Shown here one piece after another: positions 8,159 to 63,498 of a stretch of 64,000 nt of DNA. The stretch is from Candidatus Binataceae bacterium (lineage in GTDB: Bacteria > Desulfobacterota > Binatia > Binatales > Binataceae), in the NCBI GenBank assembly GCA_035533435.1, contig DATLTX010000058.1, positions 27 to 64,026 of the forward strand, read 5' to 3'. Made by a program: the position numbers and the translations under genes. The stretch's first letter is position 1; every line of letters begins with the position of its first letter. The notes beneath the pieces were generated by a model. It was given only the letters and a program-made list of their open reading frames with translations. It did no database searches and had not been told where the DNA came from.

Positions 8159-8244
8159 CGCGCGGCGCTCATCGCGCCGGCGAGGCAGGAAGGCGGGACG
8201 GATTGCCGCGGTGAAAGCATCGCGATACTCACTTCTTCGACTGG

Positions 8245-9339: not shown

Positions 9340-9623
9340 TCTCCCCTACTCCTTGGTCCAGTATTACGCGGCACGCGAATGATTCGCCAGTGCGTCCGTT
9401 GGCTATCGCGGCACCGGCGCTATCGGGAAAATGAAATATACGGACTTGCGAGGGTGGTTGGCTAGCCCCTGTGCGCGGCGCCAACGCCCCACCCGGGTGC
9501 GCGTCGATCATGTCACCGGAGCGGACGCGTCGAGGTGGCCGCCGCTCTTCACACACCAGATGGCGGAGCGATTGCCGTCCATCACCGACGGCGAGCAGGC
9601 ACGCGCGCGTGCAAAGCCTCGGT

Positions 9624-10190
9624 TCAAGCGGGCTTGCGGGCGCGAAATCGAAATGCGTAGGGGTTCGTGTCCACCTTCGCGTCGATGAATCCGGCGGCTT
9701 CCAGGCGCGCCGGAAAAGTGCGCGGATCAGCCAGGACCATCGTGTCGAAAAGATGCAGAAGGCGCAGCGAAAAACTGTAAACGCTGTCGGAGCCTGCGAA
9801 TGTTCCGCCCGGGCGCAGCACGCGCGCGACTTCTGCCAGCAGGCGGTCTTGCAATTCCGGAGATTGCACGTGATGCAGCATCGTGAAGCTCACCGCGCCG
9901 TCGAAACTTGCCGCCGGAAGCGACATCGCCGTCGCGTCCTCGCGGAGCACCGTTACGTTTTGGCCGGCCATCCGCCGGGCCAGCTCGGCCGCGAGCGCGC
10001 GGTCGGTCTCGACGCAGGTCAGGTGCGCCACGCGGCCGCGCAAGAGATCGGTGGTGACGCCTGGACCCGGCCCGACTTCCAGGACATTTGCGCCGAGATC
10101 GATTCCGTCGAGCGCCCAGGGCAGCGCGAACTTCTCGACCGTATTCTTCCAACGCTTAGAGCGGCAAAGCCTTCGATGGATGAGATTCAT
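9624..10190 (-). CDS. class I SAM-dependent methyltransferase
   Basis: SAM-binding motif I VLEVGPGPGVTT and a Rossmann-fold pattern. Confidence 0.75.
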   Translation of the reverse strand: MNLIHRRLCRSKRWKNTVEKFALPWALDGIDLGANVLEVGPGPGVTTDLLRGRVAHLTCVETDRALAAELARRMAGQNVTVLREDATAMSLPAASFDGAVSFTMLHHVQSPELQDRLLAEVARVLRPGGTFAGSDSVYSFSLRLLHLFDTMVLADPRTFPARLEAAGFIDAKVDTNPYAFRFRARKPA

Positions 10191-10230
10191 AGCGCCTCAC
10201 GCGTCCAGGCAACCGCCGCGGGCGGAATAG

Positions 10231-10614
10231 CTACTTCGGCTGCTGAGTCAGCGACAGGGTATTGCCGTCAGGATCTTTGAACCAGCAAACCTTGGCCTTA
10301 CCGTCGGGGGTCGTCCAGATTCCGGCGTCGTCCTGCTGGAGTTCCGGGTATCGCTCGAACTTGACGCCTCGCCCTGCGAGCGCCGCGACGGCCGCGCCGA
10401 TGTCGGCAACCCTCCATCCGAGCGTCGTGAAAGGCAGCGGCACGAACTCGCGCACCTTTTGAACCATTAGGGTCCGGCCCGCCGCGGTGAAGACGATCGC
10501 GTGCCAGCCGTCTTCCACCAGCTCGAGACCAAGGACCTCGCAATAGAATGCCTTGGCTCGTTCGGGCTGCGTTGTCGCGACAAAACCGATCATCTCGTTT
10601 TCGGCGAGGATCAT
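10231..10614 (-). CDS. VOC (glyoxalase/bleomycin-resistance) family protein
   Basis: 127 aa with the paired beta-alpha-beta-beta-beta module pattern (HxxxxV...DPDGN). Confidence 0.6.
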   Translation of the reverse strand: MILAENEMIGFVATTQPERAKAFYCEVLGLELVEDGWHAIVFTAAGRTLMVQKVREFVPLPFTTLGWRVADIGAAVAALAGRGVKFERYPELQQDDAGIWTTPDGKAKVCWFKDPDGNTLSLTQQPK

Positions 10615-39807: not shown

Positions 39808-39997
39808 GAGATGTACCTCGGCTTATCCCGGGCAGTCAGACGCAAGGAGTCTGCCAATTGCAATAGTGCCGCGGCGCACGATTCCGCGTGGTGCGTATTG
39901 CAGGGTGAGAGCGATGGCTGTGGCGATCAGCGCCACAGTGTGGCTCCATTCTGTAGCTGTAAGAGGCAGCTCGACCGAAAAATCTCCACGCTCGCGA

Positions 39998-40013
39998 TGG
40001 CACGACCTTCGCT
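39998..40013 (+). promoter_or_regulatory. candidate sigma54 promoter for Usp-CBS gene 1
   Basis: TGGCACGaccTTcGCt. Shares CGATGGCACGAC with the paralogue promoter. Confidence 0.55.
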
Positions 40014-48032: not shown

Positions 48033-48034
48033 GC

Positions 48035-48065
48035 GGCGGGCGTCCAATCGCCAAGGACGCCCGCC
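48035..48065. terminator. bidirectional intrinsic-terminator-like hairpin between convergent genes
   Basis: Perfect 11-bp stem GGCGGGCGTCC / GGACGCCCGCC with a 9-nt loop. A second 7-bp stem CTGAGCC-GG-GGCTCAG follows at 48088..48103. Confidence 0.5.
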
Positions 48066-48099
48066 GCGAGTGTGAATGGTGCCGGAGCTGAGCCGGGGC

Positions 48100-48585
48100 T
48101 CAGTGGACGGTTGCGGATTCGGCGACCGGCTCGGAGCGCCCGGCGCCGTCGAAAAATTCCTGCAGGTTCTGCTGATAGCGATAGAATAAATCCGCGTCGA
48201 GCTGATTGTCCGCCTCGATCCGCAGGGGAGTGTCGAGCAGCGTAAGCGTGTTCAGCGTATGCCCGAGATCGGCGTGTCCGTTGGCGGCGATATTCTCGAT
48301 CATTTCACGCCATCCCGAATACGGCCCCGAGACGACAATCGAGCCCTTGGCGGCGTCCGCGACGCTGGCCAGATGGCGCACACCGGTGCAGCGATAGCCG
48401 CTGAACACGATCTCGAAGCAGTCGCTCGAATCGTCGTAATCGATCTTCACGACCAGAGTCATGTCCACCGTGCCGAGGCGCCGGAAGAGATCGGGGTCGG
48501 CGTTGACGCGCGTGCGCAGCTCTTCAAAAAACTCTTTCGAGGGATACCAGGTCATAGTCGTTGCCTCCGTAAGCGGATAACCCAT
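48100..48585 (-). CDS. hypothetical small protein, partner of the diiron protein (possibly SCP2/NTF2-like)
   Basis: 161-aa acidic ORF. Its start is 11 nt downstream of the diiron gene stop. No motif recognised. Confidence 0.4.
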   Translation of the reverse strand: MGYPLTEATTMTWYPSKEFFEELRTRVNADPDLFRRLGTVDMTLVVKIDYDDSSDCFEIVFSGYRCTGVRHLASVADAAKGSIVVSGPYSGWREMIENIAANGHADLGHTLNTLTLLDTPLRIEADNQLDADLFYRYQQNLQEFFDGAGRSEPVAESATVH

Positions 48586-48596
48586 TCGCCAGGCGT

Positions 48597-49676
48597 TCAG
48601 ATTGGCAGCTCGAGTGGAATCGCGAGGCGGCTCGTGCGATCGATTCCCGCCATCTTGAGCCGATGCAGGTACTCGTGGATCTGCTTCTTGAACAGGTAGC
48701 CCAGCTTCGCAAAGCCTTCGTCAATATGCTCGAGGCCGCCGCCGGCCAGAATCGCGCGCGCTTCGACGGTGTCCTGGGTCTGGTTGAGGCTGAATGTCGC
48801 TTCCTCTCCGCGTTGCAGGATGTCATGAATCTCGGGCTCGCGCTCGGGATGCTTCTCGAGGAAATACTTCAGATGCATCGTGCCGTACGCGACGTGGCGC
48901 GCTTCGTCCTGCATGCAGAGCCGGAAGATTTTCTTTTCCACCGCGGACAGCGCAAACATCTCGCCGTTGCGGAACAGGGTCAGCACAAAGCCCTCGCCCA
49001 GGATGTGCATCAGCGCGCTGGCGGTGGTGAAGTTCGGCGCTTCCAGGATCACGCGCAGCAATTCCTCGGAGTCGGGTGAGGAGCGCAGCAGGCCGCCGCC
49101 GTTGGCCAGCGCGCGTTTGCGGAACACCTCCATATGCCGCGCCTCATCGAAGATTTGCGAGGCCAAAAACAATTTCACTTCGTGAAAGTCGTGGTTGATG
49201 CGATGCAGCCATTTGGCGGGCATGTCGCCGGCGACGAACTCGATCTCGGCAAGGTTGGTGCACACCTGGCACATCGCCTTCTCGAGATCATCGCGCTGCG
49301 GCCGAAGCTCATCCCACGGAATGTCGCGCGCCGAACTCCATTGCCGCGCCACCGCTTCGTCGTAAAGGTGGGCAACGTTTTCGGCCCATACCAGGGATTT
49401 GTCGTTGATGTCGTAGCAGCCGAGCGAGGGCATATCGTCGGGAATCTCTGAACCGCGCGGCGCCATGCTGCCGTATATCGATCCGTGGTCCGGCACGGCG
49501 CCATACTGTCCGACCAGGTTGATGTCTTCCAGCCCGAGGCCGCGCTCGTCGCGCGGCGTCGCCCTGACGCCCCAACCGGTGGGATTCGAGTTCATCCAGC
49601 TCAAATCCAGCTTCCCCTTGCGTACGTCGCTCAGGGTATCAAGGGCTTTCTCGACGCTTGGACTGACATGCGGCAT
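48597..49676 (-). CDS. ferritin-like diiron-carboxylate protein (AurF/CmlI-like oxygenase family, tentative)
   Basis: Two E-x(~30)-DEARH motifs (AEIEF...DEARHMEVF ; GEGF...QDEARHVAYG), typical of carboxylate-bridged di-iron four-helix-bundle enzymes. Confidence 0.5.
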   Translation of the reverse strand: MPHVSPSVEKALDTLSDVRKGKLDLSWMNSNPTGWGVRATPRDERGLGLEDINLVGQYGAVPDHGSIYGSMAPRGSEIPDDMPSLGCYDINDKSLVWAENVAHLYDEAVARQWSSARDIPWDELRPQRDDLEKAMCQVCTNLAEIEFVAGDMPAKWLHRINHDFHEVKLFLASQIFDEARHMEVFRKRALANGGGLLRSSPDSEELLRVILEAPNFTTASALMHILGEGFVLTLFRNGEMFALSAVEKKIFRLCMQDEARHVAYGTMHLKYFLEKHPEREPEIHDILQRGEEATFSLNQTQDTVEARAILAGGGLEHIDEGFAKLGYLFKKQIHEYLHRLKMAGIDRTSRLAIPLELPI

Positions 49677-49724
49677 GGCACTGCTCTCCTTGGCGGTAAT
49701 CGGAATAGATGCGTTTCCCGATAA

Positions 49725-49740
49725 CGCAAAGGACGTGCCA
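49725..49740 (-). promoter_or_regulatory. candidate sigma54 promoter for diiron-protein operon
   Basis: Minus-strand TGGCACGtcctTTGCg, perfect consensus. The adjacent 6-bp inverted repeat TGCGTT-N7-AACGCA (49710..49728) overlaps -12/+1. Confidence 0.6.
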
Positions 49741-49907
49741 TCGCGATTACGTCCGGCCTCGGCAGCTGGCGGGGGAACCGCCCGCTTTATCCGAACTTAC
49801 TAACCGTTCGGTAGATTACCGCGCCAATTGCGACGATGCCGGGATGACGCCGATCGAATCAAGTGTGTCCGATCGAACCGCCCGCCGCCCGATCGTCTCT
49901 GGACCTT

Positions 49908-50787: not shown

Positions 50788-50803
50788 AGCGATTGTCGTG
50801 CCA
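50788..50803 (-). promoter_or_regulatory. candidate sigma54 promoter for Usp-CBS gene 2
   Basis: Minus-strand TGGCACGacaaTcGCt. Identical 12-mer CGATGGCACGAC as the 39998 site. Confidence 0.55.
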
Positions 50804-53684: not shown

Positions 53685-53700
53685 AGCATCGGCTGTGCCA
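53685..53700 (-). promoter_or_regulatory. candidate sigma54 promoter for DUF1329/secreted-protein operon
   Basis: Minus-strand TGGCACagccgaTGCt, ~60 nt upstream of the corrected ATG 53626. Confidence 0.45.
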
Positions 53701-54030: not shown

Positions 54031-54046
54031 TGGCAGCCTAATTGCT
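54031..54046 (+). promoter_or_regulatory. candidate sigma54 promoter for CBS/P-type ATPase 7-gene operon
   Basis: TGGCAGcctaaTTGCT with GG-N10-GC, 36 nt upstream of ATG 54082. Confidence 0.55.
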
Positions 54047-54081
54047 CTGTATGATCGCGTTCTCGACCGGAGGTGGCTGTA

Positions 54082-54474
54082 ATGAGAATCGCAAACCTGA
54101 TGACGCGGGAGCCGGTGAGGGTTGGCCCGCGTGATACGCTGGAAAAGGTTCAAGGCCTGATGAAGCAAGGCGGCTTTCGCCGCGTGCCAGTGGTCGATAA
54201 CGACTCGATAGTTGGAATCCTGACTGAACGTGACCTGCGCGCGCATCACAGCACCATGGCGGAAACGCGGGTCAACGCCGTGATGAGCGCACCGGTGGTG
54301 ACGCTCGAATCGGGCGCTTCAGTCGAGGAAGCCGCGCGCGTGATGCTGCGCAACAAGATCGGCGGGCTGCCGATTGTCGAGCGGGGAAAACTCGTCGGGA
54401 TTCTGACCTCGAGCGACGTTCTGAAGGCGTTTCTGCATGTTGTTGATGCGGCAAAAAAGATCATGGAGCCGTGA
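54082..54474 (+). CDS. CBS domain pair protein
   Basis: Two CBS motifs. ATG start with GGAGG-N8 RBS, so 54082 is preferred over the GTG at 54073. Confidence 0.8.
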   Translation: MRIANLMTREPVRVGPRDTLEKVQGLMKQGGFRRVPVVDNDSIVGILTERDLRAHHSTMAETRVNAVMSAPVVTLESGASVEEAARVMLRNKIGGLPIVERGKLVGILTSSDVLKAFLHVVDAAKKIMEP

Positions 54475-54537: not shown

Positions 54538-55068
54538 GTGATGACAGGCGAGCGACTCGAAACCGGCAAGGGAAAAATCCGCAGTCTCAACAGGCGCGGC
54601 ACGCGCTCGGACAAGAGTCCGCCCGTGGTGCGCAAGGCGCGCAGCTACTCTGACCCTTCGATCTGCGAAAAGTGCGGCTCGGTTTATACCTCGAAAACCT
54701 GGCGCGAGCGCCGCCCCCTTACGCGTGCGCTGATGAATCAGGCCACCTGGGCGACCTGTCCCGCCTGCGAACAAGTGGACAAGGGACAGTACTTTGGCCG
54801 AGTCTCGCTGTCCGGGCCGTATCTGATCGGCCACGTCGATGCGATCCGCGCGCGTATCGCGAACGTCGAGCGGCGGGCGCGCTTCACGCAACCCGAACGC
54901 CGCGTGGTCGCGGCGGACTTCGACGGATCGACCCTCGAGGTGCTGACCAGCTCGCAGAAGCTGGCGCATCGCATCGCCCACGAAATCGAGAAAGCTTTCG
55001 GTGGCAGCGTGACCTATTCGTGGTCGGATAGCGACGGCACCCTGGCGGCGACCTGGCATCGAGAGTAG
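54538..55068 (+). CDS. zinc-ribbon (2x CxxC) protein of unknown function
   Basis: CEKCG...(24 aa)...CPAC Cys4 ribbon at the N-terminus with a conserved-looking C-terminal domain. No family assignment possible by eye. Confidence 0.45.
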   Translation: MMTGERLETGKGKIRSLNRRGTRSDKSPPVVRKARSYSDPSICEKCGSVYTSKTWRERRPLTRALMNQATWATCPACEQVDKGQYFGRVSLSGPYLIGHVDAIRARIANVERRARFTQPERRVVAADFDGSTLEVLTSSQKLAHRIAHEIEKAFGGSVTYSWSDSDGTLAATWHRE

Positions 55069-57668
55069 TGGCCGACGTGGGCGCGGCGGGCGAATCGGGC
55101 GAGCTTGCGCGCGCAGCCACGCGAACCGGCGACCAACGCTCGTATCGCGGCCTTGACCGTGCCGAGGCCGCGCGCCGCCTTGCGCGACTGGGCCCCAATG
55201 AGTTCGTGCGGCTTCGATGGTGGGATCCGGTGGTGCGTTTTCTTCGCACCGCTGCGGATCCGATGGCGCTGATGCTGGCCGCCGCCGCCGCCGCGTACTA
55301 TGCGCTCGGCGAGCGCACCGATTCATATGTCCTTCTCGCGGCGATTGTTCCGGTGCTGGCGGTCGATGTGCTCCTTGCGGCGCGCTCGCGGGCGGCGCTG
55401 CGCAAACTGGCCGGCGCGGTCGCGGCGCGCGCACGCGTCATCCGCGACGGAACCGAAGTGGATATTCCCACCCGGGAAGTCGTTCCCGGCGACGCGTTGC
55501 TGCTCGAACAGGGCGACGTGGTGCACGCCGACGCGATCGTCCGCGCCAGCTCGAATCTGATCGCCGATGAGTCCCAATTGAGCGGCGAATCCGAGCCGGT
55601 CGCCAAGCTGCCGATTGCCGGCGCACCCGGCGACCCGAACCGCGTGTACGCGGGTTCGCGCGTCCTCGAGGGCAATGCACTGGTCGAAGTCACCGCAACC
55701 GGACCGAAAACCCGCTATGGCGATCTCGCGCGACTGACCGCCGCGGTTACGCGCCGCTCGACCCCGCTCGAGCGCAGGACCGCGCGGATCGTCGGCTGGA
55801 TGATCGCGGCGGCGATCGTTGTCGCGACGCTCGTGTTCGCGTTGCGAATACTGGCAGGCGTGCCCGCGGCGAGCGCGTTCCTCTACGCGATCAGCCTTGC
55901 GATGTCCGCCGCCGGCGAAGAATTCCTGCTCGTGCTGACCCTGTTCCTCAGCCTTGGCGCGTACCGGCTCGGCCGTCACGGAGTTCTGGTGCGCCGGTTG
56001 GCGAGCGTTGAAACCCTCGGTTCCACAACCGTCATATGCCTGGACAAAACCGGTACGCTGACCGCTGGCGAGTTCGCGCTCGAGACACATGATGCTCTCG
56101 ACCGCGACGGCACCGACGCGGCACTCTTGGAAGCCGCCGCGCTGGCGTGCGAGGCGCGTCCCGCCGATGCAATGGAACGCGAGATTCTGGCGCATTGCGT
56201 AACGCACGGAGTTGACGCGGACGCGTTGCATGCGCGATGGCGGCTGGTCCACGATTACTCATTCGATCCGGCCGGCAAACACATGTCGCACGTCTGGATC
56301 GAACGCGCGCAAAGCTCCGCCGCGGCCGCCGGGAAAATCGTGGCCAAAGGAGCGCTCGAGGGTATCCTCGAGCACTGCGACATCGCACCTGATCAAGCTG
56401 ACCGCGCCAAACGCGAAAACGCCCGGATGGCCTCGGTCGGGATGCGCGTGCTGGCGGTCGCCGGACGTGACGGACTGGCGCGCGAGTTCACCGGCGCACG
56501 CTGGCAAGACGAACGCGGGCTGCATCTGTTCGGACTGCTGGGATTTCGCGATCCATTGCGGCCCGCGGTTCCCGCCGCAGTCGCGCTATGCTACCGCGCG
56601 GGTATCAAGCTCAAGTTGATCACGGGGGACCATGCGCTAACCGCGCACGCGGTTGCCGAAGCCGCCGGGATGGGCGGCCACGCGTCGGAGATCATCACCG
56701 GATCGCAGCTCGACGCGCTGAGCCCGTCCGCTTTCGATCGCGCCGTGGACCGCTGCACGATTTTCGCGCGCACCCGGCCCGAGCAGAAGTACGCAATTGT
56801 CGAGGCGCTCAGACGCGCCGGCGAAGTGGTCGCGATGACCGGCGACGGGATCAATGACGCGCCGGCTCTCAGGCGCGCCGACCTGGGCGTTGCGATGGGG
56901 CGGCGCGGCACCGAAATCGCCCGTACAGCGGCGGATATCGTCCTGCTCGACGACGATTTCTCGGCGTTGGCGGTCACGATCCGCGAAGGCCGCAGGCTGC
57001 TCGAATCTATTCAGCGCGCGTTCCTATATCTGATCGGCTTCAAAGTGATGCTGGTGCTGGTTGCTTTCAGCGCGCCGATTCTGGGCCTGCCGCTGCTGCT
57101 CGTGCCAGTGACTCTTGTGTGGCTCGAACTAATTGTCCATCCGGTTTCCGCGCTGGCCTTCGAGGGCGGTATCCCCGACGAAGACGTGATGGCGCGGCCG
57201 CCGACTCGGCCCTCGGCTCCGCTGGTCGATCGATCGAGCGCCATCCGCGCTGCTATCGCGGGCGCGCTGCTCGCGGCGGCGGCGCTGAGCCTGTTCGCGA
57301 TGCGGATGCGTGCGGGAGAGAATTATGCGCGGACCGTTGCGATGGTGGTAATCGTGGCGGGCAGCGTGATGCTGGTAATTGCCGAGATGGCGGGTGCGCA
57401 GCCCTGGTCGCGTCTGCACGTGCCGCGGAGCCTTCGCTTCTGGACCGTGATGCTTGCCGTCGCGGCGAGCCTGCCCATCTTCATTTCGATCAAACCGATC
57501 GCGTCGCTGTTGATGCTACAATCGATTAGGCCGGCGGATTGGTCTATAGCATTGGCCGCCGCGGCCGCCGCCGTCGGCTGGCGCGCATGCGGCGCTCCCT
57601 CCTCCCGAGACTCGAGCGACGCACGATATGACGCCTCGGTCGCGAGTAGTCGCGGGGATGTCCGCTGA
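55068..57668 (+). CDS. P-type cation-transporting ATPase (P2/Ca2+-Mg2+-like)
   Basis: Phosphorylation motif DKTGTLT, hinge MTGDGINDAPAL, and 8-10 TMs. The GTG start overlaps the preceding stop. Confidence 0.85.
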   Translation: MADVGAAGESGELARAATRTGDQRSYRGLDRAEAARRLARLGPNEFVRLRWWDPVVRFLRTAADPMALMLAAAAAAYYALGERTDSYVLLAAIVPVLAVDVLLAARSRAALRKLAGAVAARARVIRDGTEVDIPTREVVPGDALLLEQGDVVHADAIVRASSNLIADESQLSGESEPVAKLPIAGAPGDPNRVYAGSRVLEGNALVEVTATGPKTRYGDLARLTAAVTRRSTPLERRTARIVGWMIAAAIVVATLVFALRILAGVPAASAFLYAISLAMSAAGEEFLLVLTLFLSLGAYRLGRHGVLVRRLASVETLGSTTVICLDKTGTLTAGEFALETHDALDRDGTDAALLEAAALACEARPADAMEREILAHCVTHGVDADALHARWRLVHDYSFDPAGKHMSHVWIERAQSSAAAAGKIVAKGALEGILEHCDIAPDQADRAKRENARMASVGMRVLAVAGRDGLAREFTGARWQDERGLHLFGLLGFRDPLRPAVPAAVALCYRAGIKLKLITGDHALTAHAVAEAAGMGGHASEIITGSQLDALSPSAFDRAVDRCTIFARTRPEQKYAIVEALRRAGEVVAMTGDGINDAPALRRADLGVAMGRRGTEIARTAADIVLLDDDFSALAVTIREGRRLLESIQRAFLYLIGFKVMLVLVAFSAPILGLPLLLVPVTLVWLELIVHPVSALAFEGGIPDEDVMARPPTRPSAPLVDRSSAIRAAIAGALLAAAALSLFAMRMRAGENYARTVAMVVIVAGSVMLVIAEMAGAQPWSRLHVPRSLRFWTVMLAVAASLPIFISIKPIASLLMLQSIRPADWSIALAAAAAAVGWRACGAPSSRDSSDARYDASVASSRGDVR

Positions 57669-57708
57669 TGGCGAACCTGGATTCACGAATGCGCGAGGAG
57701 AATTCGGC

Positions 57709-58173
57709 ATGCCGAAAAAAGTTTTCGAAAATGCGAGTCATAAACCGCACGCCGCAAACGCGGCGCGAAGGTGTGCGACCGGCGCTATCGCAGTAGCCGC
57801 GATCCTGGCGATTGCGATCGGCTCCGCACGCGCCGCCCAACCCGCCGGGCAGGCCGACTATCAGCAGTATTGCTCCGACTGCCACGGCAAGGACGCGAGG
57901 GGCAATGGCCCACTGGTGAAGCAAATCCCGATGGCGCCGCCACCGAGCGACCTGACCCTGCTCGCGAGCGCGCGCGGCGGAAAGTTTCCGTTCGATGACG
58001 TGGTCGATGTAATCGACGGGCGCAAGGCAATACCGTCCCACGCGCGTATCCAGATGCCGTTTTGGGGCGTTACGCTGCAGAAACCCGGTCAGGAATTTTC
58101 GCCTGCGAGCGACGCCGCGGTAAAGCAACGGATTCAGGCAATCGCGCGCTATCTCGAAGGCCTTCAGCGATGA
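57709..58173 (+). CDS. periplasmic monohaem c-type cytochrome
   Basis: Signal peptide and a CSDCH haem motif. GAGGAG RBS. Confidence 0.65.
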   Translation: MPKKVFENASHKPHAANAARRCATGAIAVAAILAIAIGSARAAQPAGQADYQQYCSDCHGKDARGNGPLVKQIPMAPPPSDLTLLASARGGKFPFDDVVDVIDGRKAIPSHARIQMPFWGVTLQKPGQEFSPASDAAVKQRIQAIARYLEGLQR

Positions 58174-59054
58174 CGAGCCGTGCTGCGCGAGTGCACTGCT
58201 TTCCCCGCGACGCCCGTCTGGCGCGCAGGGTCGCGGCACGCGCAGGTCTGGCCTGCGCGAAGATTCGCGTGCACCGCTTCCCCGACGGCGAGTCGATGCC
58301 GCTGGTTGCGTCAGCGCCGGGCAAGAATGCGATCCTGGTGCGCGCGCTCGACGGTCAGGGCGCCAACCTGTTCGATACTCTTCTGGCCGCCGACGCGTTG
58401 CGGCGCGCGGGCGCGCGGCGCGTAACGCTGGTCGCGCCGTATCTTCCCTACATGCGCCAGGACAAGGTCTTCCGCCCGGGCGAACCGATCTCGCAACGCG
58501 TGATTGGCGACTTGCTCGGCCGCTCTTTCGACCGCGTGATCACGGTCGAGCCGCATCTGCATCGCATCGCGCGCCTGGGAGAGGTCGTCGCCTGCCAGGC
58601 GGATTCAATCACGGCGGCGCCGGCGATTGCCGAGTGGGTAAAGCGCAATCGGCGCGACAGCCTGGTGGCCGGCCCGGATGCGGAATCACGTTCCTGGATT
58701 GAATCGATCGCGCGCCAGGCGGACACGGCGTCAGCGGTTGGCGTAAAGCATCGCGATAGCGACCGGCGGGTGCGGGTGCGCTTCGCCGCGCTCGCGCGTC
58801 GCTCGCGCGCGATTATTGTCGACGATATTGCAAGTTCGGGAGCGACGCTCGCCGCCGCCGCGCGGGCATTGCGCACGCGGGGAATCGCGGCGATCGATGT
58901 AATCGTGGTGCACGCGATTTTCGCCCCGGGCGCCATCGCGCGGATTCGGCGCGCGGGCGTGCGCCGGATCATCTCGTGCGACACGATCCGCCATCCGACC
59001 AACGCCATCAGCATCGCGCCGCTGCTGGCGGCGGCGCTCGAGAGGAAGACTTGA
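58170..59054 (+). CDS. ribose-phosphate pyrophosphokinase-like phosphoribosyltransferase
   Basis: Prs-like N-domain and PRPP-binding motif IIVDDIASSGATL. Start ATG overlaps the preceding stop (ATGA). Confidence 0.7.
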   Translation: MTSRAARVHCFPRDARLARRVAARAGLACAKIRVHRFPDGESMPLVASAPGKNAILVRALDGQGANLFDTLLAADALRRAGARRVTLVAPYLPYMRQDKVFRPGEPISQRVIGDLLGRSFDRVITVEPHLHRIARLGEVVACQADSITAAPAIAEWVKRNRRDSLVAGPDAESRSWIESIARQADTASAVGVKHRDSDRRVRVRFAALARRSRAIIVDDIASSGATLAAAARALRTRGIAAIDVIVVHAIFAPGAIARIRRAGVRRIISCDTIRHPTNAISIAPLLAAALERKT

Positions 59055-60458
59055 ATGCGCGAGCAAGGCACCGGCCATCCCTCCATTCTGCGCTTTCTGG
59101 GCGCGGCCGGCACGGTTACGGGAAGCAGGTTTTTGCTCACTGGCGGCGGACGCAGGGTACTGATCGATTGCGGCTTGTTCCAGGGACTCAAGGAACTTCG
59201 GCTGCGCAACTGGGAGCGGTTTGCGGCGGATCCGAAGAGCCTCGATGCGATCGTGATTACGCATGCGCATCTTGATCACAGCGGATACCTTCCGTCGATC
59301 GTGCGCGACGGCTATCGCGGGCGGATTCACGCCACGGCTTCGACCGTTGATCTGTGCCGAATCCTGTTGCCCGACAGCGGACACTTGCAGGAAGAGGAAG
59401 CGGAATACGCCAATCACGCGGGCTATTCCAAACACGCGCCGGCGCTGCCGCTGTACACTGAAGAAGACGCGCTTCGCACTCAGCAATATTTCACGCCGGC
59501 GCAGTTCGCTGAGCGCGTAGAAGTGGCAAACCGCATTCACGCGACGTTTCGCAGCGCGGGGCACATTCTCGGCTCCGCCAGCATCCTGCTTGAAACCCCT
59601 TCGCGCCGCCTGCTATTCAGCGGCGATCTCGGGCGCCCCAGCCATCCGCTGATGCGGCCACCCGCGCCGCTGCCCGAGGCGGAAATCGTCGCCGTCGAAT
59701 CGACTTACGGCGATCGGATCCACGAGGATCAGAAGTCCCTCGACGCGTTCGCCGAATCGATCGCGCAGACCGCCGCGCGCGGCGGTGTGATCGTTATCCC
59801 GTCGTTCGCCGTCGATCGCACTGAGGTTCTGCTGTTCCATTTGCGCGCGATGATCCAATCCGGCCGCATTCCGGGATTGCCCATTTACGTCGATAGTCCA
59901 ATGGCGCTGGCCGCGCTCAAGCTGTACAAGCGAGCCATCCTGAGCGGCGGCGCCGAGATTCGCCCTGAAGTCGCCGGCCGGCCCGAGGTGCTCGATCCCG
60001 GCCTGACCTCGGAAGTAACCTCGCGCGACGAATCGATCGCGCTCAACGGCCTCGACGGACCGATGATCATCATCTCGGCGTCCGGGATGGCCACCGGCGG
60101 CCGGGTGTTGCATCATCTTTCGCGCCGCCTGCCCGACGCGCGCAACGCGGTCATCCTGGTTGGCTACCAGGCCGAAGGAACCCGCGGGCGCGCGCTGCTC
60201 GAGGGTGCATCGTCGGTGAAGATGCTGGGCCGCTATGTCCCGGTGCGCGCGCAGGTGGTTAACGTGCCGGCGTTTTCGGTGCACGCCGACCGCGCTGAAA
60301 TTCTGGCGTGGCTCGCGACCGCTCCGCGGCGCCCGGAGCTGGCGTTTATCGTGCACGGCGATCCGGCCGCGGCGCAGTCGCTGTGCGCGGCGGTGCGCAA
60401 GGAGCTCGGCTGGAACGCCGTGGTTCCACGCCATCTCGAACAGGTTCGAATCGACTGA
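59055..60458 (+). CDS. MBL-fold metallo-hydrolase of the beta-CASP family
   Basis: HxHxDH motif (ITHAHLDHSG), beta-CASP motifs, and a C-terminal RNA-specificity-like domain. Confidence 0.75.
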   Translation: MREQGTGHPSILRFLGAAGTVTGSRFLLTGGGRRVLIDCGLFQGLKELRLRNWERFAADPKSLDAIVITHAHLDHSGYLPSIVRDGYRGRIHATASTVDLCRILLPDSGHLQEEEAEYANHAGYSKHAPALPLYTEEDALRTQQYFTPAQFAERVEVANRIHATFRSAGHILGSASILLETPSRRLLFSGDLGRPSHPLMRPPAPLPEAEIVAVESTYGDRIHEDQKSLDAFAESIAQTAARGGVIVIPSFAVDRTEVLLFHLRAMIQSGRIPGLPIYVDSPMALAALKLYKRAILSGGAEIRPEVAGRPEVLDPGLTSEVTSRDESIALNGLDGPMIIISASGMATGGRVLHHLSRRLPDARNAVILVGYQAEGTRGRALLEGASSVKMLGRYVPVRAQVVNVPAFSVHADRAEILAWLATAPRRPELAFIVHGDPAAAQSLCAAVRKELGWNAVVPRHLEQVRID

Positions 60459-60468
60459 GGAGGACGCG

Positions 60469-61974
60469 ATGTTTCGGCTGCGGCATCTATGCCTGGATAC
60501 TCTGCGCGAGCACGTGATCGTGATTCACGAACACGCGGTGCGAGCGGGCAATCTTGGCTTCAGTCCGCTGGATCGCGCGGTAGTGATGGGCCTGGTACCG
60601 GGCGGCGGCGCGCGCCACGAGATCACCGGCGTACTGAATTTCTGCCTCGACGACCTGATCGCGCCCGATGAAATCGGCGTCTCGGACCAGGCCTTTCGCG
60701 ATCTCGGCCTGCCCGAAGGAGCGCCGGTCGAAGCGACGCTGGCGGCCGCGCCGCGCAGCGTCGATCATGTGCGCGCGAAACTTGGCGGTACGCGGCTCGA
60801 CCGCGCCGCGTTTGACGCGATCCTGTCCGACGTCGTGCGGCATCGGTACTCGCGCGTCGAGCTCACGATGTTCGTGCTGGCGTGCGCGCTCAGACGCCTC
60901 GACCTCGACGAGCTCTGCTATTACACGCAGGCGATGATCGCGACCGGCGAGTCGCTGGATTTCGGCGGTGCGAAGGTCGCCGACAAGCACTCGATCGGCG
61001 GAGTTCCAGGCAATCGGACCACGATGATCGTGGTTCCGATCGTCGCGGCGCTCGGAGTCCTGATGCCCAAAACCTCGTCGCGCGCGATCACCAGCCCGGC
61101 GGGCACCGCGGACACGATGGGTGCAATCGCCATTGTCGAACTGAACCCGGCGCGGATGCGCGAGATCGTCGGCCGCGTCGGCGGCTGCATCGGATGGGGC
61201 GGTTCGCTCAGCCTTGCGCCCGCCGACGATATTCTGATCACCGTCGAGCGGCCGATGGAGATCGATACGGAAGCGCAGATGGTGGCTTCAATTCTGGCCA
61301 AGAAGAAAAGCGTCGGCGCAACCGATGTCGTGATCGATATTCCCGTCGGACCCACCGCCAAGGTTCGCAGCCAGGCCGCTGCCGAGCATCTGGCGGGGCT
61401 GTTCCACAGCATCGCCGAGCGGATCGGATTGCGTATCGAGGTCGAGAGCACGCTCGCACTTGGGCCGATCGGACGCGGAATCGGGCCGCGGCTCGAGGCG
61501 CTGGACGTGCTCTCGGTGCTTGGCGGCGAAAGCGTTCAGCTTGCCGATCTGCGGGAAAAATCGCTCTACCTTGCCGCGCGGATTCTCGAGATGACTGGCG
61601 CGGTCGCGCCGCACGGCGGTTACCGTGCGGCCCAGCGCACGCTCGACTCGGGAGCGGCGCGCAAAAAATTCCAGGAAATCGTCGCCGCGCAAGGCGCGCG
61701 CGAGCTGGCGCCCGAGGCTCCATATCGATGCGAGATCGCGTCGGAAGCCGACGGCAGAATCAGGGACATCGATTGCCTCGAGATCGCGCGAGTGGCAAAA
61801 CGCGCCGGGGCGCCAGCCAATATCAGCGCGGGAATCAGGCTTTTGAAGACCGTCGGAGAAGTGGTTGGCCGCGCCGAGCCGCTGTTTGAGATTCATGCCG
61901 CAAGCGCGGCGCAATTGGAGTTTGCACGGCAATACGCGGCGTCGCATCCGGGGATGTTCAGATTCGGTTTTTGA
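60469..61974 (+). CDS. thymidine/AMP phosphorylase family protein (glycosyl transferase family 3 fold)
   Basis: DKHSIGGVPGNRTT and TSSRAITSPAGTADTM motifs of pyrimidine-nucleoside phosphorylases. Start ATG with GAGGAGGA RBS. Confidence 0.75.
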   Translation: MFRLRHLCLDTLREHVIVIHEHAVRAGNLGFSPLDRAVVMGLVPGGGARHEITGVLNFCLDDLIAPDEIGVSDQAFRDLGLPEGAPVEATLAAAPRSVDHVRAKLGGTRLDRAAFDAILSDVVRHRYSRVELTMFVLACALRRLDLDELCYYTQAMIATGESLDFGGAKVADKHSIGGVPGNRTTMIVVPIVAALGVLMPKTSSRAITSPAGTADTMGAIAIVELNPARMREIVGRVGGCIGWGGSLSLAPADDILITVERPMEIDTEAQMVASILAKKKSVGATDVVIDIPVGPTAKVRSQAAAEHLAGLFHSIAERIGLRIEVESTLALGPIGRGIGPRLEALDVLSVLGGESVQLADLREKSLYLAARILEMTGAVAPHGGYRAAQRTLDSGAARKKFQEIVAAQGARELAPEAPYRCEIASEADGRIRDIDCLEIARVAKRAGAPANISAGIRLLKTVGEVVGRAEPLFEIHAASAAQLEFARQYAASHPGMFRFGF

Positions 61975-61992
61975 GCGTTTGACCGTGCGGCG

Positions 61993-63498
61993 CTATTCGA
62001 GACCGTACTTAGCGATCTTCGCATAGAGCTTCTTGCGCGAGATCTTGAGCAGCTTGGCCGCGGCGACTTTGTTGCCGCCGGTGCTCTCGATCGCGCGGCC
62101 AATCAGATCGCGCTCGGCGTCGGCGAAGCTACCCACGCTTTCACCGCCGAACCCGGCGGGAGCCGCCGCGCGCACCCCGGAGATCGCTTCGGGCAAATCA
62201 ACCAGGCGCAGCTCGGATGCGCGGCCAAAGGTAAAGGCGCTCTCGATCGCGTTGGCCAGTTCGCGCACGTTTCCCGGCCACTGATATGCGCTCATCGCCT
62301 CGAGCGCCGCTCGCTCGATTCCCACCACCGGCGCCAGGCGCATCCCGCGTTCGTTCATCACCTCGACAAAGTGATCGACGAGCAGCCCTATGTCCTCGAG
62401 CCGGTCGCGCAGCGGAGGCACCGCAAGCACGCTGGCCTGAAGCCGGTAGTACAGATCTTGCCGCAAGAGACCCACGCGGAGGGCTTCTTCAGGATCGCGA
62501 TTGGTCGAGGCGATCAGCCGCGCGTTGACTGCAATCTCGCGGGTTGCGCCGACAGGACGCACAGTCCGTTCCTGCAGGACGCGCAAGAGCTTGCTCTGGG
62601 TCTCGGCGCTCATCTCGGTAACTTCATCGAGCAGCAGCGTCCCACCCTCAGCGGCGCGAAACAGGCCCTCGTACTCGTTGTTCGCGCCGCTGAACGCGCC
62701 GCGTTTGTAGCCGAACAATTCGCTTTCGATCAGATCGCGCGGAATCGCGGCGCAATTCAGCGCGACGAACGGCGCGTTCGGCTTGGCGCCGCATTCGTGA
62801 ATTGCGCGCGCCACCAATTCTTTCCCCGTCCCGCTCTCCCCCACGATCAGCACGGTCCCGCGCGTCGCGCCCACCGCCTCGATCCGCTCGTACAGCTTGC
62901 GCATCGCAGGGCTCGCGCCGACCAGGCCGTGAAAGCGCGTGCGCTCGCCGGCGGGCAGCGCTGTCGCCTCGCGCTCGAGCGCCTGGATTCGCGCACCCGA
63001 GACCGCGGTGGTCGAGCGAAAGTAGGTGTCCGCCAGGATGATCATCCGGCAATGACTCAGCTTGTCGAAGGAAAGGTAGGTCTTGGGCAGCGACGGTGGA
63101 AAGACCGGAAACACCGCGGTCGCGCTTTCCTCGAACAGATGCATCGAAATGATCAGCTCGGAAAACGGAACTCCCCGGTCGGCCAGCGTGCGCCCAACCC
63201 GGCGGATATCCGCGGCGAAGCCCTCCATGTCGCGGGCCAGCAGATCGCGCAAAGTAGTGTCCAGCTCGGAGCCGAAGATCTCGAGGAACTCGGTCCTGGT
63301 CAGGGCGCGTGAATCACCGAAGTGCAGTACATAGAGGTTGTACCAGTTGGCCATCACTTCGTCGCGGTGGCGGCGAATCGACTCGAAGACTGGCGTCAGA
63401 GCCTCCAGCTCCTCGTCCCATAGAAGGTGGAAATATCGGGGCGCGGTGGACTGCGTTTTTGCGGGGTTTGAAGATTCAGACGGTGGCTTCATGCGCAA
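61993..63498 (-). CDS. sigma54-dependent transcriptional activator (bEBP) with non-receiver N-terminal sensory domain
   Basis: AAA+ Walker A GESGTGKE, GAFSGA (GAFTGA variant) sigma54-contact loop, and a C-terminal Fis-type HTH. The N-terminal ~190 aa lack the receiver Asp signature. Confidence 0.85.
   Translation of the reverse strand: MRMKPPSESSNPAKTQSTAPRYFHLLWDEELEALTPVFESIRRHRDEVMANWYNLYVLHFGDSRALTRTEFLEIFGSELDTTLRDLLARDMEGFAADIRRVGRTLADRGVPFSELIISMHLFEESATAVFPVFPPSLPKTYLSFDKLSHCRMIILADTYFRSTTAVSGARIQALEREATALPAGERTRFHGLVGASPAMRKLYERIEAVGATRGTVLIVGESGTGKELVARAIHECGAKPNAPFVALNCAAIPRDLIESELFGYKRGAFSGANNEYEGLFRAAEGGTLLLDEVTEMSAETQSKLLRVLQERTVRPVGATREIAVNARLIASTNRDPEEALRVGLLRQDLYYRLQASVLAVPPLRDRLEDIGLLVDHFVEVMNERGMRLAPVVGIERAALEAMSAYQWPGNVRELANAIESAFTFGRASELRLVDLPEAISGVRAAAPAGFGGESVGSFADAERDLIGRAIESTGGNKVAAAKLLKISRKKLYAKIAKYGLE

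What the first reader, a model, noticed from the sequence alone, without database searches (positions are those of the whole stretch)
48100..49740. Ferritin-like diiron protein plus small partner under a consensus sigma54 promoter with overlapping palindrome
The 359-aa protein has two E-x(30-35)-DEARH motifs, the signature of carboxylate-bridged di-iron four-helix-bundle enzymes such as the AurF/CmlI N-oxygenases and other O2-activating enzymes. It is followed after 11 nt by an acidic 161-aa protein with no recognisable family. The pair is driven by a perfect-consensus sigma54 site (TGGCACGtcctTTGCg) whose -12/+1 region overlaps a 6-bp inverted repeat TGCGTT-N7-AACGCA (49710..49728). That layout would fit an additional repressor layer. 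An O2-dependent diiron enzyme in an island otherwise geared to anaerobic energy conservation is worth a look, for example as an O2-scavenging or signalling enzyme.
Basis: partly seen in the sequence, partly recalled or inferred. Interest (0 to 1): 0.55.

Follow-up and report, generated by a model that had tools for sequence, protein, structure and literature searches.

The report
Diiron oxidase with SCP2-like partner
This is a tightly linked two-gene cassette, an R2-like dimetal oxidase followed by a small protein with a lipid-carrier (SCP2-like) fold; it is common in uncultured bacteria, has never been studied, and here sits behind a real sigma-54 promoter among low-oxygen and stress genes, while the proposed repressor palindrome is probably chance.

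Summary
The sequence features are real. There is a 359-aa gene (48597-49676, minus strand). The partner gene is 151 aa (48100-48555), not 161. A TGGCAC-N5-TTGC site lies at 49726-49740 and a 6-bp inverted repeat at 49710-49728.

- **Diiron protein.** It keeps a full E/ExxH/E/ExxH ligand set. By sequence and fold it sits nearest VlmB and the R2-like ligand-binding oxidases (R2lox), not AurF/CmlI. No Pfam or NCBIfam model reaches threshold.
- **Partner.** It has no detectable sequence family, but a confident model matches SCP2 and UbiJ-SCP2 carriers.
- **Linkage.** The partner lies directly downstream in 76 of 81 loci from Binatia, Myxococcota, Gammaproteobacteria, Acidimicrobiia and Chloroflexota. 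Other neighbours vary.
- **Promoter.** The -24/-12 element is invariant in 11 Binataceae orthologues and recurs in 25 of 81 loci. Three gammaproteobacterial loci carry FNR-type boxes instead.
- **Context.** Six loci follow the pair with a quinol NO reductase. Others hold NnrS, a protoglobin kinase, nitroreductase or wax-ester synthase genes.
- **Palindrome.** It is not conserved and is no rarer than chance.

Best reading: a low-oxygen/NO-induced dimetal oxidase acting on a hydrophobic substrate handed over by the partner. The chemistry is unknown. This is a new variant of a known kind, of moderate interest.

The parts
48597..49676 (-). Gene for a 359-aa R2-like dimetal-carboxylate protein. Ligands are E146, E178, H181, E228, E258 and H261. 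Phe185 sits at the position of the RNR radical tyrosine.
   Evidence: ORF. Family alignment with invariant ligands. Co-variation of E146 with the other ligands. PDB sequence and profile matches to VlmB, R2lox and RNR R2. AF2 model with pLDDT 72 and Foldseek matches.
48100..48555 (-). Gene for a 151-aa acidic partner with an SCP2-like fold. Its start codon lies 41 nt after the stop of the first gene, behind GGAGG at 48564-48568.
   Evidence: Homologue lengths. Independent gene calls giving 151 aa. AF2 model with pLDDT 88. Foldseek best matches are UbiJ-SCP2 6h6n, SCP2-like 2nbm and SCP2 1c44. Found directly downstream in 76 of 81 loci.
49726..49740 (-). Sigma-54 type promoter, TGGCAC (-24) N5 TTGC (-12). 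It starts 64 nt upstream of the ATG at 49676. The ribosome-binding site AGGAG lies at 49686-49690.
   Evidence: Only exact match in the window. Invariant in 11 orthologous upstream regions. A similar site occurs in 25 of 81 loci, against 0.01 expected per locus.
49710..49728 (.). Inverted repeat TGCGTT-N7-AACGCA overlapping the -12 element. Most likely a chance feature.
   Evidence: Present. Background frequency is 7.4 per kb, and 14% of 40-bp windows hold such a repeat. Not conserved. There is a weak post-hoc signal for repeats anchored at -12.
49845..49877 (-). Tandem direct repeats TTCGATCGG-N3-CA, two copies 19 nt apart, starting 132 nt upstream of the -24 element. Candidate enhancer (activator-binding) site.
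   Evidence: The only two exact TTCGATCGG copies in the window. The same paired motif lies at -131 to -135 in L007, L008 and L010, against a background of 0.003 per 200 nt. Degenerate copies are visible in other orthologues. The function is inferred.
49797..49817 (-). Conserved element AATCTACCGAACGGTTAGTAA between the repeats and the promoter. Role unknown; it could be a DNA-bending protein site or a second regulator site.
   Evidence: Conserved in the window, L008, L009, L010, L011 and L016 within an otherwise divergent spacer.
48033..48067 (-). GC-rich hairpin with a 13-bp stem in the 67-nt gap between the convergent partner gene and the cytochrome c gene. Likely a bidirectional terminator that closes the two-gene operon.
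   Evidence: Sequence. RNA fold gives -44.3 kcal/mol with z = -4.6 and 0 of 200 shuffles as stable. It has no T-run, so the consensus scan missed it.

Best explanation
The two genes form a self-contained operon. It encodes a cytosolic R2-like dimetal (Fe/Fe or Mn/Fe) oxidase and a small SCP2-fold protein.

Shown:
- The enzyme keeps all six metal ligands.
- It belongs to the VlmB/R2lox/RNR-R2 branch of the ferritin-like superfamily.
- The partner is almost always encoded directly downstream, while all other neighbours vary.
- The operon is read from a conserved sigma-54 promoter and ends at a strong hairpin.

Inferred:
- The partner binds a hydrophobic molecule (a fatty acyl or other lipid, or an isoprenoid quinol) and presents it to the dimetal site.
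- That site uses O2 to oxidise the bound molecule.
- The cassette is switched on when oxygen is scarce or nitric oxide is present. In Binataceae this happens through a sigma-54 activator bound to the upstream tandem repeats, and in some Gammaproteobacteria through an FNR/DNR-type regulator.

The actual substrate and product are unknown.
For: Fold and ligands:
- phmmer against the PDB finds the VlmB homologue 6d9f/8wvr at 5e-6.
- A family profile finds VlmB at 1.9e-9, Geobacillus R2lox at about 5e-6, and then other R2lox and RNR R2 chains.
- Foldseek ranks the same proteins first, with TM 0.5-0.6.
- The ligands are invariant across 22 homologues of 61-86% identity. E146 co-occurs with E178, E228 and E258.

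Partner:
- The model has pLDDT 88.
- Foldseek gives UbiJ-SCP2, SCP2-like 2 and SCP2 at E = 4.5e-4 to 7e-3 with probability 1.0.

Linkage:
- The partner is directly downstream in 76 of 81 loci from five phyla or classes.
- No other neighbour occurs in more than 10 loci.

Low-O2/NO link:
- One Binatia locus has a protoglobin histidine kinase and a sigma-54 response regulator just upstream, with NnrS, hemerythrin-CBS and Usp genes close by. A -24/-12-like site lies in front of the small gene that precedes the pair there.
- A quinol NO reductase follows the pair within 23-142 nt in six loci, and a seventh locus has one about 2.4 kb further on.
- NnrS occurs in three loci and Crp/Fnr-family regulators in four.
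- TTGAT-N4-ATCAA boxes lie at -68 to -77 in three gammaproteobacterial loci, against about 0.1 expected over all loci.
- In the window a Usp-CBS gene with its own sigma-54-type site lies directly upstream.

Lipid link:
- Recurrent neighbours include WS/DGAT wax-ester/triacylglycerol synthase, acyltransferase, acyl-CoA dehydrogenases, thiolase, SDR, luciferase-like monooxygenases and P450.
Against: - No biochemical data exist for any member, and every member found comes from a metagenome-assembled genome.
- The SCP2 assignment rests on a predicted structure with modest TM scores (0.42-0.59). It has no sequence support.
- The NO/hypoxia neighbours occur in only about 15-20% of loci, and most neighbourhoods are uninformative.
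- No reductase or other electron donor is conserved next to the pair.
- The model of the large protein is only moderate (pLDDT 72). Much of its highly conserved first 110 residues is not confidently modelled (pLDDT below 50 over residues 34-68 and 86-109).
- Physical contact between the two proteins was not tested. No fusion of the two was found among 425 retrieved proteins.
Confidence: 0.55

Rival explanations
1. Nitric-oxide handling. The dimetal site reduces or traps NO, or repairs NO damage, and works beside the membrane quinol NO reductase. This would resemble the small di-iron protein NorA encoded with norB under the sigma-54 activator NorR in Ralstonia eutropha (recalled from the literature, not checked here).
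For: - The order diiron, SCP2-like gene, qNOR, about-140-aa gene appears in six loci.
- NnrS occurs in three loci.
- Crp/Fnr-family regulators and FNR/DNR-type boxes are present.
- The cassette uses sigma-54 promoters.
Against: - The qNOR linkage is seen in only 7 of 81 loci.
- A lipid-carrier-like partner has no obvious role in NO chemistry.
- The nearest relatives are O2-activating oxidases.
- The family is not related by sequence to hemerythrin-type RIC/YtfE/NorA proteins or to flavodiiron proteins; no such match appeared.
Confidence: 0.15
2. Quinone-directed enzyme. The SCP2-like partner would hold an isoprenoid quinol or a quinone precursor, as UbiJ does. The dimetal protein would hydroxylate it, as Coq7 does with the lipid-binding Coq9, or oxidise it with O2, as alternative oxidase does. 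The second option would amount to the O2-scavenging role the first reader suggested.
For: - The best fold match of the partner is the SCP2 domain of UbiJ.
- The window cassette lies next to a Rieske/cytochrome b/multihaem cytochrome c complex.
- The recurrent neighbour qNOR also uses quinol.
- The regulation appears linked to low oxygen.
Against: - The protein shows no sequence or fold similarity to Coq7 or alternative oxidase.
- No quinone-biosynthesis genes recur nearby.
- The UbiJ match is barely better than the matches to generic SCP2 proteins.
Confidence: 0.12
3. Natural-product tailoring enzyme, an N-oxygenase or azoxy synthase of the AurF/CmlI or VlmB type.
For: VlmB is the best solved relative, with E = 5e-6 for the single sequence and 1.9e-9 for the profile at about 20% identity. 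VlmB is a di-iron oxygenase that forms the azoxy group of valanimycin (PMC11705231).
Against: - No biosynthetic cluster surrounds the pair in any of 81 loci. The most frequent neighbouring Pfam families include no NRPS, PKS, tRNA-synthetase-like or other cluster-typical genes. No single neighbour family recurs in more than 10 loci, so no conserved VlmO-type membrane partner is present.
- The Pfam AurF model does not match.
- Identity of 60% or more across phyla, and a very wide spread in soil and marine genomes, are unlike a specialised-metabolite enzyme.
Confidence: 0.04
4. Non-catalytic ferritin-like protein used for iron storage or detoxification, or a ribonucleotide reductase small subunit.
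For: There are weak sub-threshold hits to Ribonuc_red_sm and R2 structures.
Against: - The protein has about 360 aa and an R2-type architecture, not a 4-helix ferritin. The Pfam Ferritin model does not match.
- Phe185 is invariant at the radical-tyrosine position.
- No RNR large subunit is among the most frequent neighbouring families.
Confidence: 0.03

Closest known systems
R2-like ligand-binding oxidases (R2lox; Geobacillus kaustophilus 4hr0, M. tuberculosis Rv0233 3ee4/4ac8)
   Same: - It has the R2 fold with four Glu and two His ligands.
- Glu, not Asp, is the first ligand, and Phe replaces the radical Tyr.
- It is a stand-alone enzyme with no RNR large subunit.
- The family profile matches R2lox at about 5e-6, beginning at the conserved W-x6-LYE-A-x4-W segment.
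- R2lox carries a fatty-acid ligand in its crystal structures (from my own knowledge), which fits a lipid-carrier partner here.
   Different: - Identity is only about 16-18%.
- The NCBIfam R2lox models score 13-25 bits, against cut-offs of 194-315.
- It has an extra N-terminal segment of about 90 residues that is highly conserved.
- It has an obligate SCP2-like partner gene, which to my knowledge is not a feature of R2lox loci.
- The Tyr-Val cross-link residues of R2lox were not examined.
VlmB / 'Protein 60' of Kitasatospora setae (6d9f, 8wvr), azoxy synthase of valanimycin biosynthesis
   Same: It is the best solved relative by sequence and by fold. The two DExRH helices align residue for residue.
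   Different: - Identity is about 20%.
- VlmB sits in a biosynthetic cluster and works after the membrane protein VlmO (PMC11705231), and nothing of that kind recurs here.
- VlmB is not reported to have an SCP2-like partner.
AurF / CmlI arylamine N-oxygenases
   Same: Both have a dimetal helix bundle with two E...DExxH motifs.
   Different: - The Pfam AurF model does not match.
- The extra His ligand of AurF (from my own knowledge) corresponds to Cys254 here.
- The genomic setting is different.
Coq7 with Coq9, the UbiJ/UbiT SCP2 proteins of ubiquinone synthesis, and bacterial multicomponent monooxygenase hydroxylases with their small effector protein
   Same: The working principle is shared. 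A dimetal or other hydroxylase depends on a small cofactor-less protein that binds the hydrophobic substrate or gates access to the active site. The partner's best fold match is UbiJ-SCP2.
   Different: - There is no homology of the large protein to Coq7 or to monooxygenase alpha subunits beyond the superfamily level. Phenol hydroxylase scores only E = 0.05.
- The partner's fold is SCP2-like, and no MmoB/DmpM-type effector appears among its fold matches.
- No reductase or ferredoxin genes are conserved nearby.
norA-norB under NorR in Ralstonia eutropha, and the DosR hypoxia/NO regulon of mycobacteria (both from my own knowledge)
   Same: - A small cluster of stress genes responds to low O2 or NO.
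- A di-iron protein is encoded with a quinol NO reductase.
- Sigma-54 control is used.
- The company is similar: Usp, CBS, nitroreductase, WS/DGAT, ferredoxin and P-type ATPase genes.
   Different: - NorA is a hemerythrin-type protein, which is unrelated.
- DosR is a LuxR-type regulator that works with sigma-70-type promoters.
- The regulator acting here has not been identified. The one activator gene in the window lies 12 kb away, and an activator gene lies within 6-8 kb of the pair in only one locus.

Membership tests
Ferritin-like superfamily, R2-like (RNR small subunit / R2lox / VlmB) branch | Helix bundle with two E...ExxH ligand pairs on four helices | tested here: met
   E146, E178-x2-H181, E228 and E258-x2-H261 are invariant in the close family and co-vary in the wider family. 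The model is all-helical, with long helices at 129-157, 165-191, 216-240 and 245-275.
Ferritin-like superfamily, R2-like (RNR small subunit / R2lox / VlmB) branch | Significant sequence or fold similarity to solved members | tested here: met
   VlmB scores 1.9e-9, and R2lox chains score from about 5e-6 to 2.5e-4, with a family profile. Foldseek gives probability 1.0 and TM 0.5-0.6 to VlmB, RNR R2 and R2lox.
R2-like ligand-binding oxidase (R2lox) proper | Reaches the curated family score | tested here: not met
   The NCBIfam R2lox equivalog and subfamily models score 13-25 bits, against cut-offs of 194-315.
R2-like ligand-binding oxidase (R2lox) proper | Mn/Fe cofactor, bound fatty-acid ligand, Tyr-Val ether cross-link | not testable with these tools
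   This needs metal analysis, a crystal structure or mass spectrometry.
Class I ribonucleotide reductase small subunit | Radical tyrosine four residues after the first ExxH histidine (or a class-specific substitute), together with a large subunit | tested here: not met
   Phe185 is invariant at that position. Pfam Ribonuc_red_sm scores 15 bits against a cut-off of 33.6. No RNR large subunit is among the most frequent neighbouring families.
AurF / CmlI N-oxygenases | Match to Pfam PF11583, and a third His ligand four residues before the second ExxH Glu | tested here: not met
   PF11583 gave no hit at E up to 1. The corresponding residue is Cys254, and it is Ala, Cys or Val in the wider family. 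The position of the AurF His is taken from my own knowledge.
VlmB-type azoxy synthases | Encoded in an azoxy biosynthetic cluster with a VlmO-type membrane partner | tested here: not met
   No neighbouring gene family other than the SCP2-like partner recurs in more than 10 of 81 loci. The most frequent neighbouring Pfam families are qNOR, SDR, radical SAM, WS/DGAT and acyl-CoA dehydrogenase. The pairing of VlmB with VlmO is taken from PMC11705231.
SCP2 sterol-carrier fold (partner protein) | Alpha/beta fold of a five-stranded sheet packed by helices, similar to solved SCP2 domains | tested here: met
   The model has pLDDT 88 with the element order H-H-E-E-E-E-H-H-E-H-H. Foldseek gives 6h6n at E = 4.5e-4, 2nbm at 4.8e-4, 4uei at 2.9e-3 and 1c44 at 3.7e-3, with TM 0.42-0.59. 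The evidence comes from fold prediction only.
SCP2 sterol-carrier fold (partner protein) | Sequence match to the Pfam SCP2 family, and a hydrophobic ligand tunnel | tested here: not met
   No SCP2 hit appeared for any of 20 members at E up to 1 or against PDB sequences. The tunnel and ligand binding are not testable here.
Sigma-54-dependent promoter | GG and GC dinucleotides ten bases apart within TGGCAC-N5-TTGC, conserved in orthologues, at a suitable distance from the start codon | tested here: met
   There is an exact consensus starting 64 nt before the ATG. It is invariant in 11 orthologues. A similar site occurs in 25 of 81 loci, against a background of 0.01 per 250 nt.
Sigma-54-dependent promoter | Dependence on RpoN and on an enhancer-binding activator | not testable with these tools
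   One activator gene is present in the window at 61993-63498. Candidate enhancer repeats lie 132 nt upstream. Neither link is demonstrated.

The most novel reading that the evidence does not exclude
The cassette is a previously unrecognised two-protein oxidase system. It combines a new family of R2-like Mn/Fe or Fe/Fe enzymes with a dedicated SCP2-fold substrate carrier. It would form part of a conserved low-oxygen/nitric-oxide survival programme in widespread uncultured soil and marine bacteria. In that programme it would remodel storage or membrane lipids, or quinols, when O2 becomes limiting. This would give the long-orphan R2lox-type chemistry a physiological setting.
Probability: 0.3. 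Interest if true: 0.65.

Novelty: new variant of a known kind. Interest (0 to 1): 0.45.

Why it matters
R2-like oxidases have been well studied as metal cofactors, but to my knowledge their biological role is still unclear. This is a large sister family: more than 3000 sequence clusters at 90% identity, and 968 clusters at 50% identity that match the query at E up to 0.001. It is 60% or more identical across phyla and has no database model.

Two further clues come with it. It is always encoded with a lipid-carrier-like protein, and it sits repeatedly in low-oxygen and nitric-oxide gene sets. Together these make the question "what do such enzymes act on, and when?" open to experiment.

The finding also points to a sigma-54-driven stress regulon in Binataceae, a lineage with no cultured member among the genomes retrieved here.

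Tried and rejected
- **Family libraries.** Pfam and NCBIfam on both proteins gave nothing above cut-off. Scanning 20 partner homologues against Pfam gave no SCP2 hit. A partner profile against PDB sequences found nothing.
- **Fusions.** I looked for fusions of the two proteins among 425 retrieved sequences as a sign of physical interaction. None were found. The long homologues carry unrelated N-terminal extensions.
- **Gene calling.** A first neighbourhood analysis that picked the longest ORF failed on this high-GC DNA. I replaced it with a codon-position log-odds caller, which reproduced the public gene calls of L001.
- **Activator genes.** I looked for an activator gene next to the pair in other loci. 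Only one locus has one, so the regulator cannot be named from synteny.
- **Shared enhancer motif.** I searched for a motif common to the other sigma-54-type sites of the window. TTCGATCGG with one mismatch is no more frequent than chance.
- **Operator test for the palindrome.** I tested it as a conserved operator and rejected it.
- **Literature.** Searches for this pairing, or for a di-iron protein encoded with qNOR, found nothing.
- **Cultured members.** Every genome hit listed and every cluster member listed that names an organism comes from a metagenome assembly.
Full report
**The observation**

The minus strand carries a 359-aa ORF (48597..49676) followed by a second ORF that ends at 48100. 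The mechanical ORF list gives 161 aa for the second gene. However, 92 homologues are 145-162 aa and align from the internal Met (MTWYPS). That Met is preceded by GGAGG at 48564-48568. Independent gene calls on three contigs carrying the identical first gene give 151 aa. The partner gene is therefore 48100..48555 and the gap between the genes is 41 nt.

The first protein contains D177-E-A-R-H181 and D257-E-A-R-H261, with upstream E146 and E228. TGGCACgtcctTTGC lies at 49726-49740, starting 64 nt before the ATG. It is the only exact match to TGGCAC-N5-TTGC in the window. The inverted repeat TGCGTT-N7-AACGCA lies at 49710-49728. A 13-bp GC hairpin at 48033-48067 (-44.3 kcal/mol, z = -4.6) fills the gap to the convergent cytochrome c gene. 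The transcription unit is therefore the two genes only.

**The large protein**

No Pfam or NCBIfam model reaches its cut-off. The best sub-threshold hits are DUF455, Ribonuc_red_sm and the R2lox equivalogs at 13-25 bits, against cut-offs of 194-315.

Against PDB sequences, the single sequence finds the VlmB homologue 6d9f/8wvr at 5e-6. A profile of 48 diverse homologues finds VlmB at 1.9e-9, then Geobacillus R2lox at about 5e-6, other R2lox and RNR R2 chains, and phenol hydroxylase and aldehyde decarbonylase only at the noise level. An AlphaFold model (pLDDT 72, and below 50 over residues 34-68 and 86-109) gives the same ranking by Foldseek, with TM 0.5-0.6.

The R2lox alignment left the helix-1 ligand ambiguous between E144 and E146. 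Co-variation settles it. All 22 representatives that keep E178, E228 and E258 also have E146, while E144 varies among them (Q, G, S, T or M in seven).

Phe185 occupies the position of the RNR radical tyrosine (H181+4) and is invariant in the close family. Cys254 sits where, as I recall, AurF has its third histidine. The Pfam AurF model does not match.

The protein is therefore a complete-ligand member of the R2-like branch. It is closest to VlmB and R2lox, belongs to neither, and is neither an AurF-type enzyme nor an RNR subunit. Four Glu ligands with Phe at the radical site is the pattern of the Mn/Fe proteins of this branch (my own knowledge). A Mn/Fe cofactor is therefore possible but untested.

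**The partner**

The partner has no sequence family. Every listed homologue that carries a source name is a "hypothetical protein", and none has a Pfam domain on record. Its model is confident (pLDDT 88), with the element order H-H-E-E-E-E-H-H-E-H-H. Foldseek places UbiJ-SCP2 (6h6n, 4.5e-4), mosquito SCP2-like 2 (2nbm), and insect and rabbit SCP2 (4uei, 1c44) at the top with probability 1.0 and TM 0.42-0.59. I read it as an SCP2-like carrier of a hydrophobic ligand. This rests on a predicted fold only.

**Family and linkage**

The large protein has more than 3000 relatives at the 90% clustering level. In the 50%-identity library, 968 representatives match at E up to 0.001 and 133 at E up to 1e-30. 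Identity stays at 60-68% between Binataceae, other Binatia, Myxococcota and marine Gammaproteobacteria. It is 49-56% to Acidimicrobiia and Chloroflexota. All records found are metagenome-assembled.

I called genes in 81 non-redundant loci with a codon-position model that reproduces the public calls and clustered the products. The partner is the next gene on the same strand in 76 of 81 loci. No other cluster occurs in more than 10 loci. The pair is an autonomous cassette. The window itself matches a 642,668-bp contig on record in ENA and NCBI, and its closest relatives are Binataceae MAGs.

**Regulation**

Eleven upstream regions from Binataceae orthologues (73-92% protein identity) align poorly, with 48% mean column identity. 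Even so, they keep T-G-G-(C)-A and T-G-C ten bases apart as invariant or nearly invariant columns. Across all loci, a TGG[CT]A[CT]-N5-nTGC site lies within 250 nt upstream in 25 of 81, against a background of 0.01 per 250 nt. All 25 are in Binatia or proteobacteria-type MAGs, and none are in Acidimicrobiia or Chloroflexota.

Starting 132 nt upstream of the -24 element are two copies of TTCGATCGG-N3-CA, 19 nt apart (49845-49877). They are the only exact TTCGATCGG copies in the window. The same pair occurs at -131 to -135 in three close relatives, against a background of 0.003 per 200 nt. This is the usual position of an activator-binding enhancer, but that role is inferred. A further element, AATCTACCGAACGGTTAGTAA (49797-49817), is conserved in the closest relatives.

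The palindrome is a different matter. Such repeats occur 7.4 times per kb here, and 14% of 40-bp windows hold one. None of the other 23 distinct orthologous promoters has a 6-bp repeat there. Five of the 24 have a repeat of at least 5 bp anchored on the -12 element, against 1.1 expected (P = 0.005). I defined that test after seeing the data. The arm sequences also differ between loci, and the two closest relatives lack the repeat. I record it as unexplained, not as an operator.

**When it is expressed**

- In one Binatia species the pair is preceded by a Usp gene, a sigma-54 response regulator, a protoglobin histidine kinase and a small helical protein. It is followed by a radical-SAM gene, NnrS, a beta-CASP hydrolase, hemerythrin-CBS and Usp. 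-24/-12-like sites lie in front of the small gene and in front of the diiron gene.
- In six loci a quinol NO reductase (COX1 plus the NorB cytochrome-c-like domain) follows the partner after 23-142 nt, with a further gene of about 140 aa. A seventh locus has one about 2.4 kb downstream. This is the commonest immediate neighbour.
- NnrS occurs in three loci and Crp/Fnr-family regulators in four. One locus reads nitroreductase, Crp, TetR, acyltransferase, WS/DGAT, the pair, qNOR. Another has a glycyl-radical enzyme, and another a ferredoxin and a PAS-LuxR regulator.
- Three gammaproteobacterial loci have TTGAT-N4-ATCAA-like boxes at -68 to -77, against about 0.1 expected over all loci.
- In the window, the gene directly upstream is a Usp-CBS protein with its own sigma-54-type site (50789-50803). 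Further such sites precede a second Usp-CBS gene, a CBS gene and others.
- The rest of the window encodes glycogen phosphorylases, a debranching enzyme, phosphoketolase, F-type ATP synthase subunits, a Rieske/cytochrome b/multihaem c complex, a P-type ATPase and one sigma-54 activator.

This resembles the mycobacterial DosR set (my own knowledge). It supports, but does not prove, induction under low oxygen or NO. Most loci give no hint.

**What it does**

The recurrent metabolic neighbours are lipid enzymes: WS/DGAT, acyltransferase, acyl-CoA dehydrogenases, thiolase, SDR, enoyl-CoA hydratase, luciferase-like monooxygenases and P450.

I combine this with the SCP2-like partner and with the fatty-acid ligand seen in R2lox crystals (my own knowledge). 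The reading I favour is an O2-activating dimetal oxidase that acts on a lipid or other hydrophobic molecule delivered by the partner, made when oxygen is scarce (confidence 0.55 for this general statement). The reaction itself is unknown.

Rivals are a role in NO handling next to qNOR (0.15), a quinol- or quinone-directed enzyme resembling Coq7/Coq9, UbiJ or alternative oxidase (0.12), a natural-product N-oxygenase (0.04), and iron storage or RNR (0.03). No conserved electron donor was found, and contact between the two proteins is untested. No fusions exist among the sequences retrieved.

**Novelty and score**

I found no paper on this pairing and no curated model. The fold and the chemistry class are known. 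The obligate SCP2-like partner, the conserved N-terminal extension and the regulatory setting are new, so I rate it a new variant of a known kind.

A specialist would find it a good lead rather than a surprise, so I score interest at 0.45.

Noticed in passing
window 50789-50803(-), 39998-40012(+), 39842-39856(-), 54031-54045(+), 53686-53700(-): There are further sigma-54-type -24/-12 sites, each one mismatch from TGGCAC-N5-TTGC. They lie in front of two Usp-CBS genes, an NTP-transferase gene, a CBS-pair gene (54073-54474) and near the DUF1329 gene. The window holds 11 such sites, against 4.5 expected. Three of them share CGATGGCACG with the site studied here, which suggests one sigma-54 stress regulon.
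   Followed up: partly
window 61993-63498 (-): This is the only sigma-54 enhancer-binding activator in the window (501 aa). Its N-terminal sensor domain of about 170 residues matches no Pfam family. It is a candidate regulator of the island but lies 12 kb from the pair.
   Followed up: partly
window 1-36000 and 55000-62000: The island also encodes two glycogen phosphorylases, a debranching enzyme, phosphoketolase, F-type ATP synthase subunits, a P-type cation ATPase, a PRPP-synthetase-like protein, a beta-CASP hydrolase and a thymidine-phosphorylase-like protein. This set is reminiscent of dormancy or hypoxia regulons.
   Followed up: partly
family-wide (alignment A6; proteins P0218-P0313): About half of the 50%-identity clusters of the wider family have lost E146, E178, E228 and E258, while keeping D177, R180, D257, R260 and three invariant Trp. 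This is a ligand-less sister clade of unknown role.
   Followed up: partly
L013 4515-5594(-), 6001-7080(+), 11922-12917(-); L017 499-1488(-), 5998-7080(+); L068 4815-5903(+), 5917-7011(+): Some genomes carry two or three paralogues close together. All but one have complete ligand sets; L017 499-1488 has Ala at position 146 and Leu at position 185.
   Followed up: partly
L029, L032, L037, L040, L041, L054 (about 7570-10590 in locus coordinates; about 1950-4900 in L037): A quinol NO reductase and a conserved protein of about 140 aa with no family follow the pair in operon-like order.
   Followed up: partly
L047 (-69), L049 (-77), L052 (-68) relative to the start codon: FNR/DNR-type boxes (TTGAT-N4-ATCAA or one mismatch) lie upstream of the pair in marine gammaproteobacterial MAGs, in place of a sigma-54 site.
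   Followed up: partly
L014 7612-8172, L018 7615-8205: A further small (186-aa) ferritin-like gene with a weak AurF/Ferritin match lies directly after the pair in two Binataceae loci.
   Followed up: no
window 49710-49728 and the orthologous promoters of L009, L011, L013, L023: Inverted repeats of 5-6 bp anchored on the -12 element occur in 5 of 24 promoters, against 1.1 expected (post-hoc P = 0.005). The arm sequences are not conserved.
   Followed up: yes
residues 1-92 of the 359-aa protein (window 49401-49676): The N-terminal extension is very highly conserved (WM-x2-N-x2-GWG and GSMAPRG motifs). Much of it is modelled with low confidence, and it is absent from R2lox and VlmB. It may be the docking surface for the partner.
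   Followed up: no
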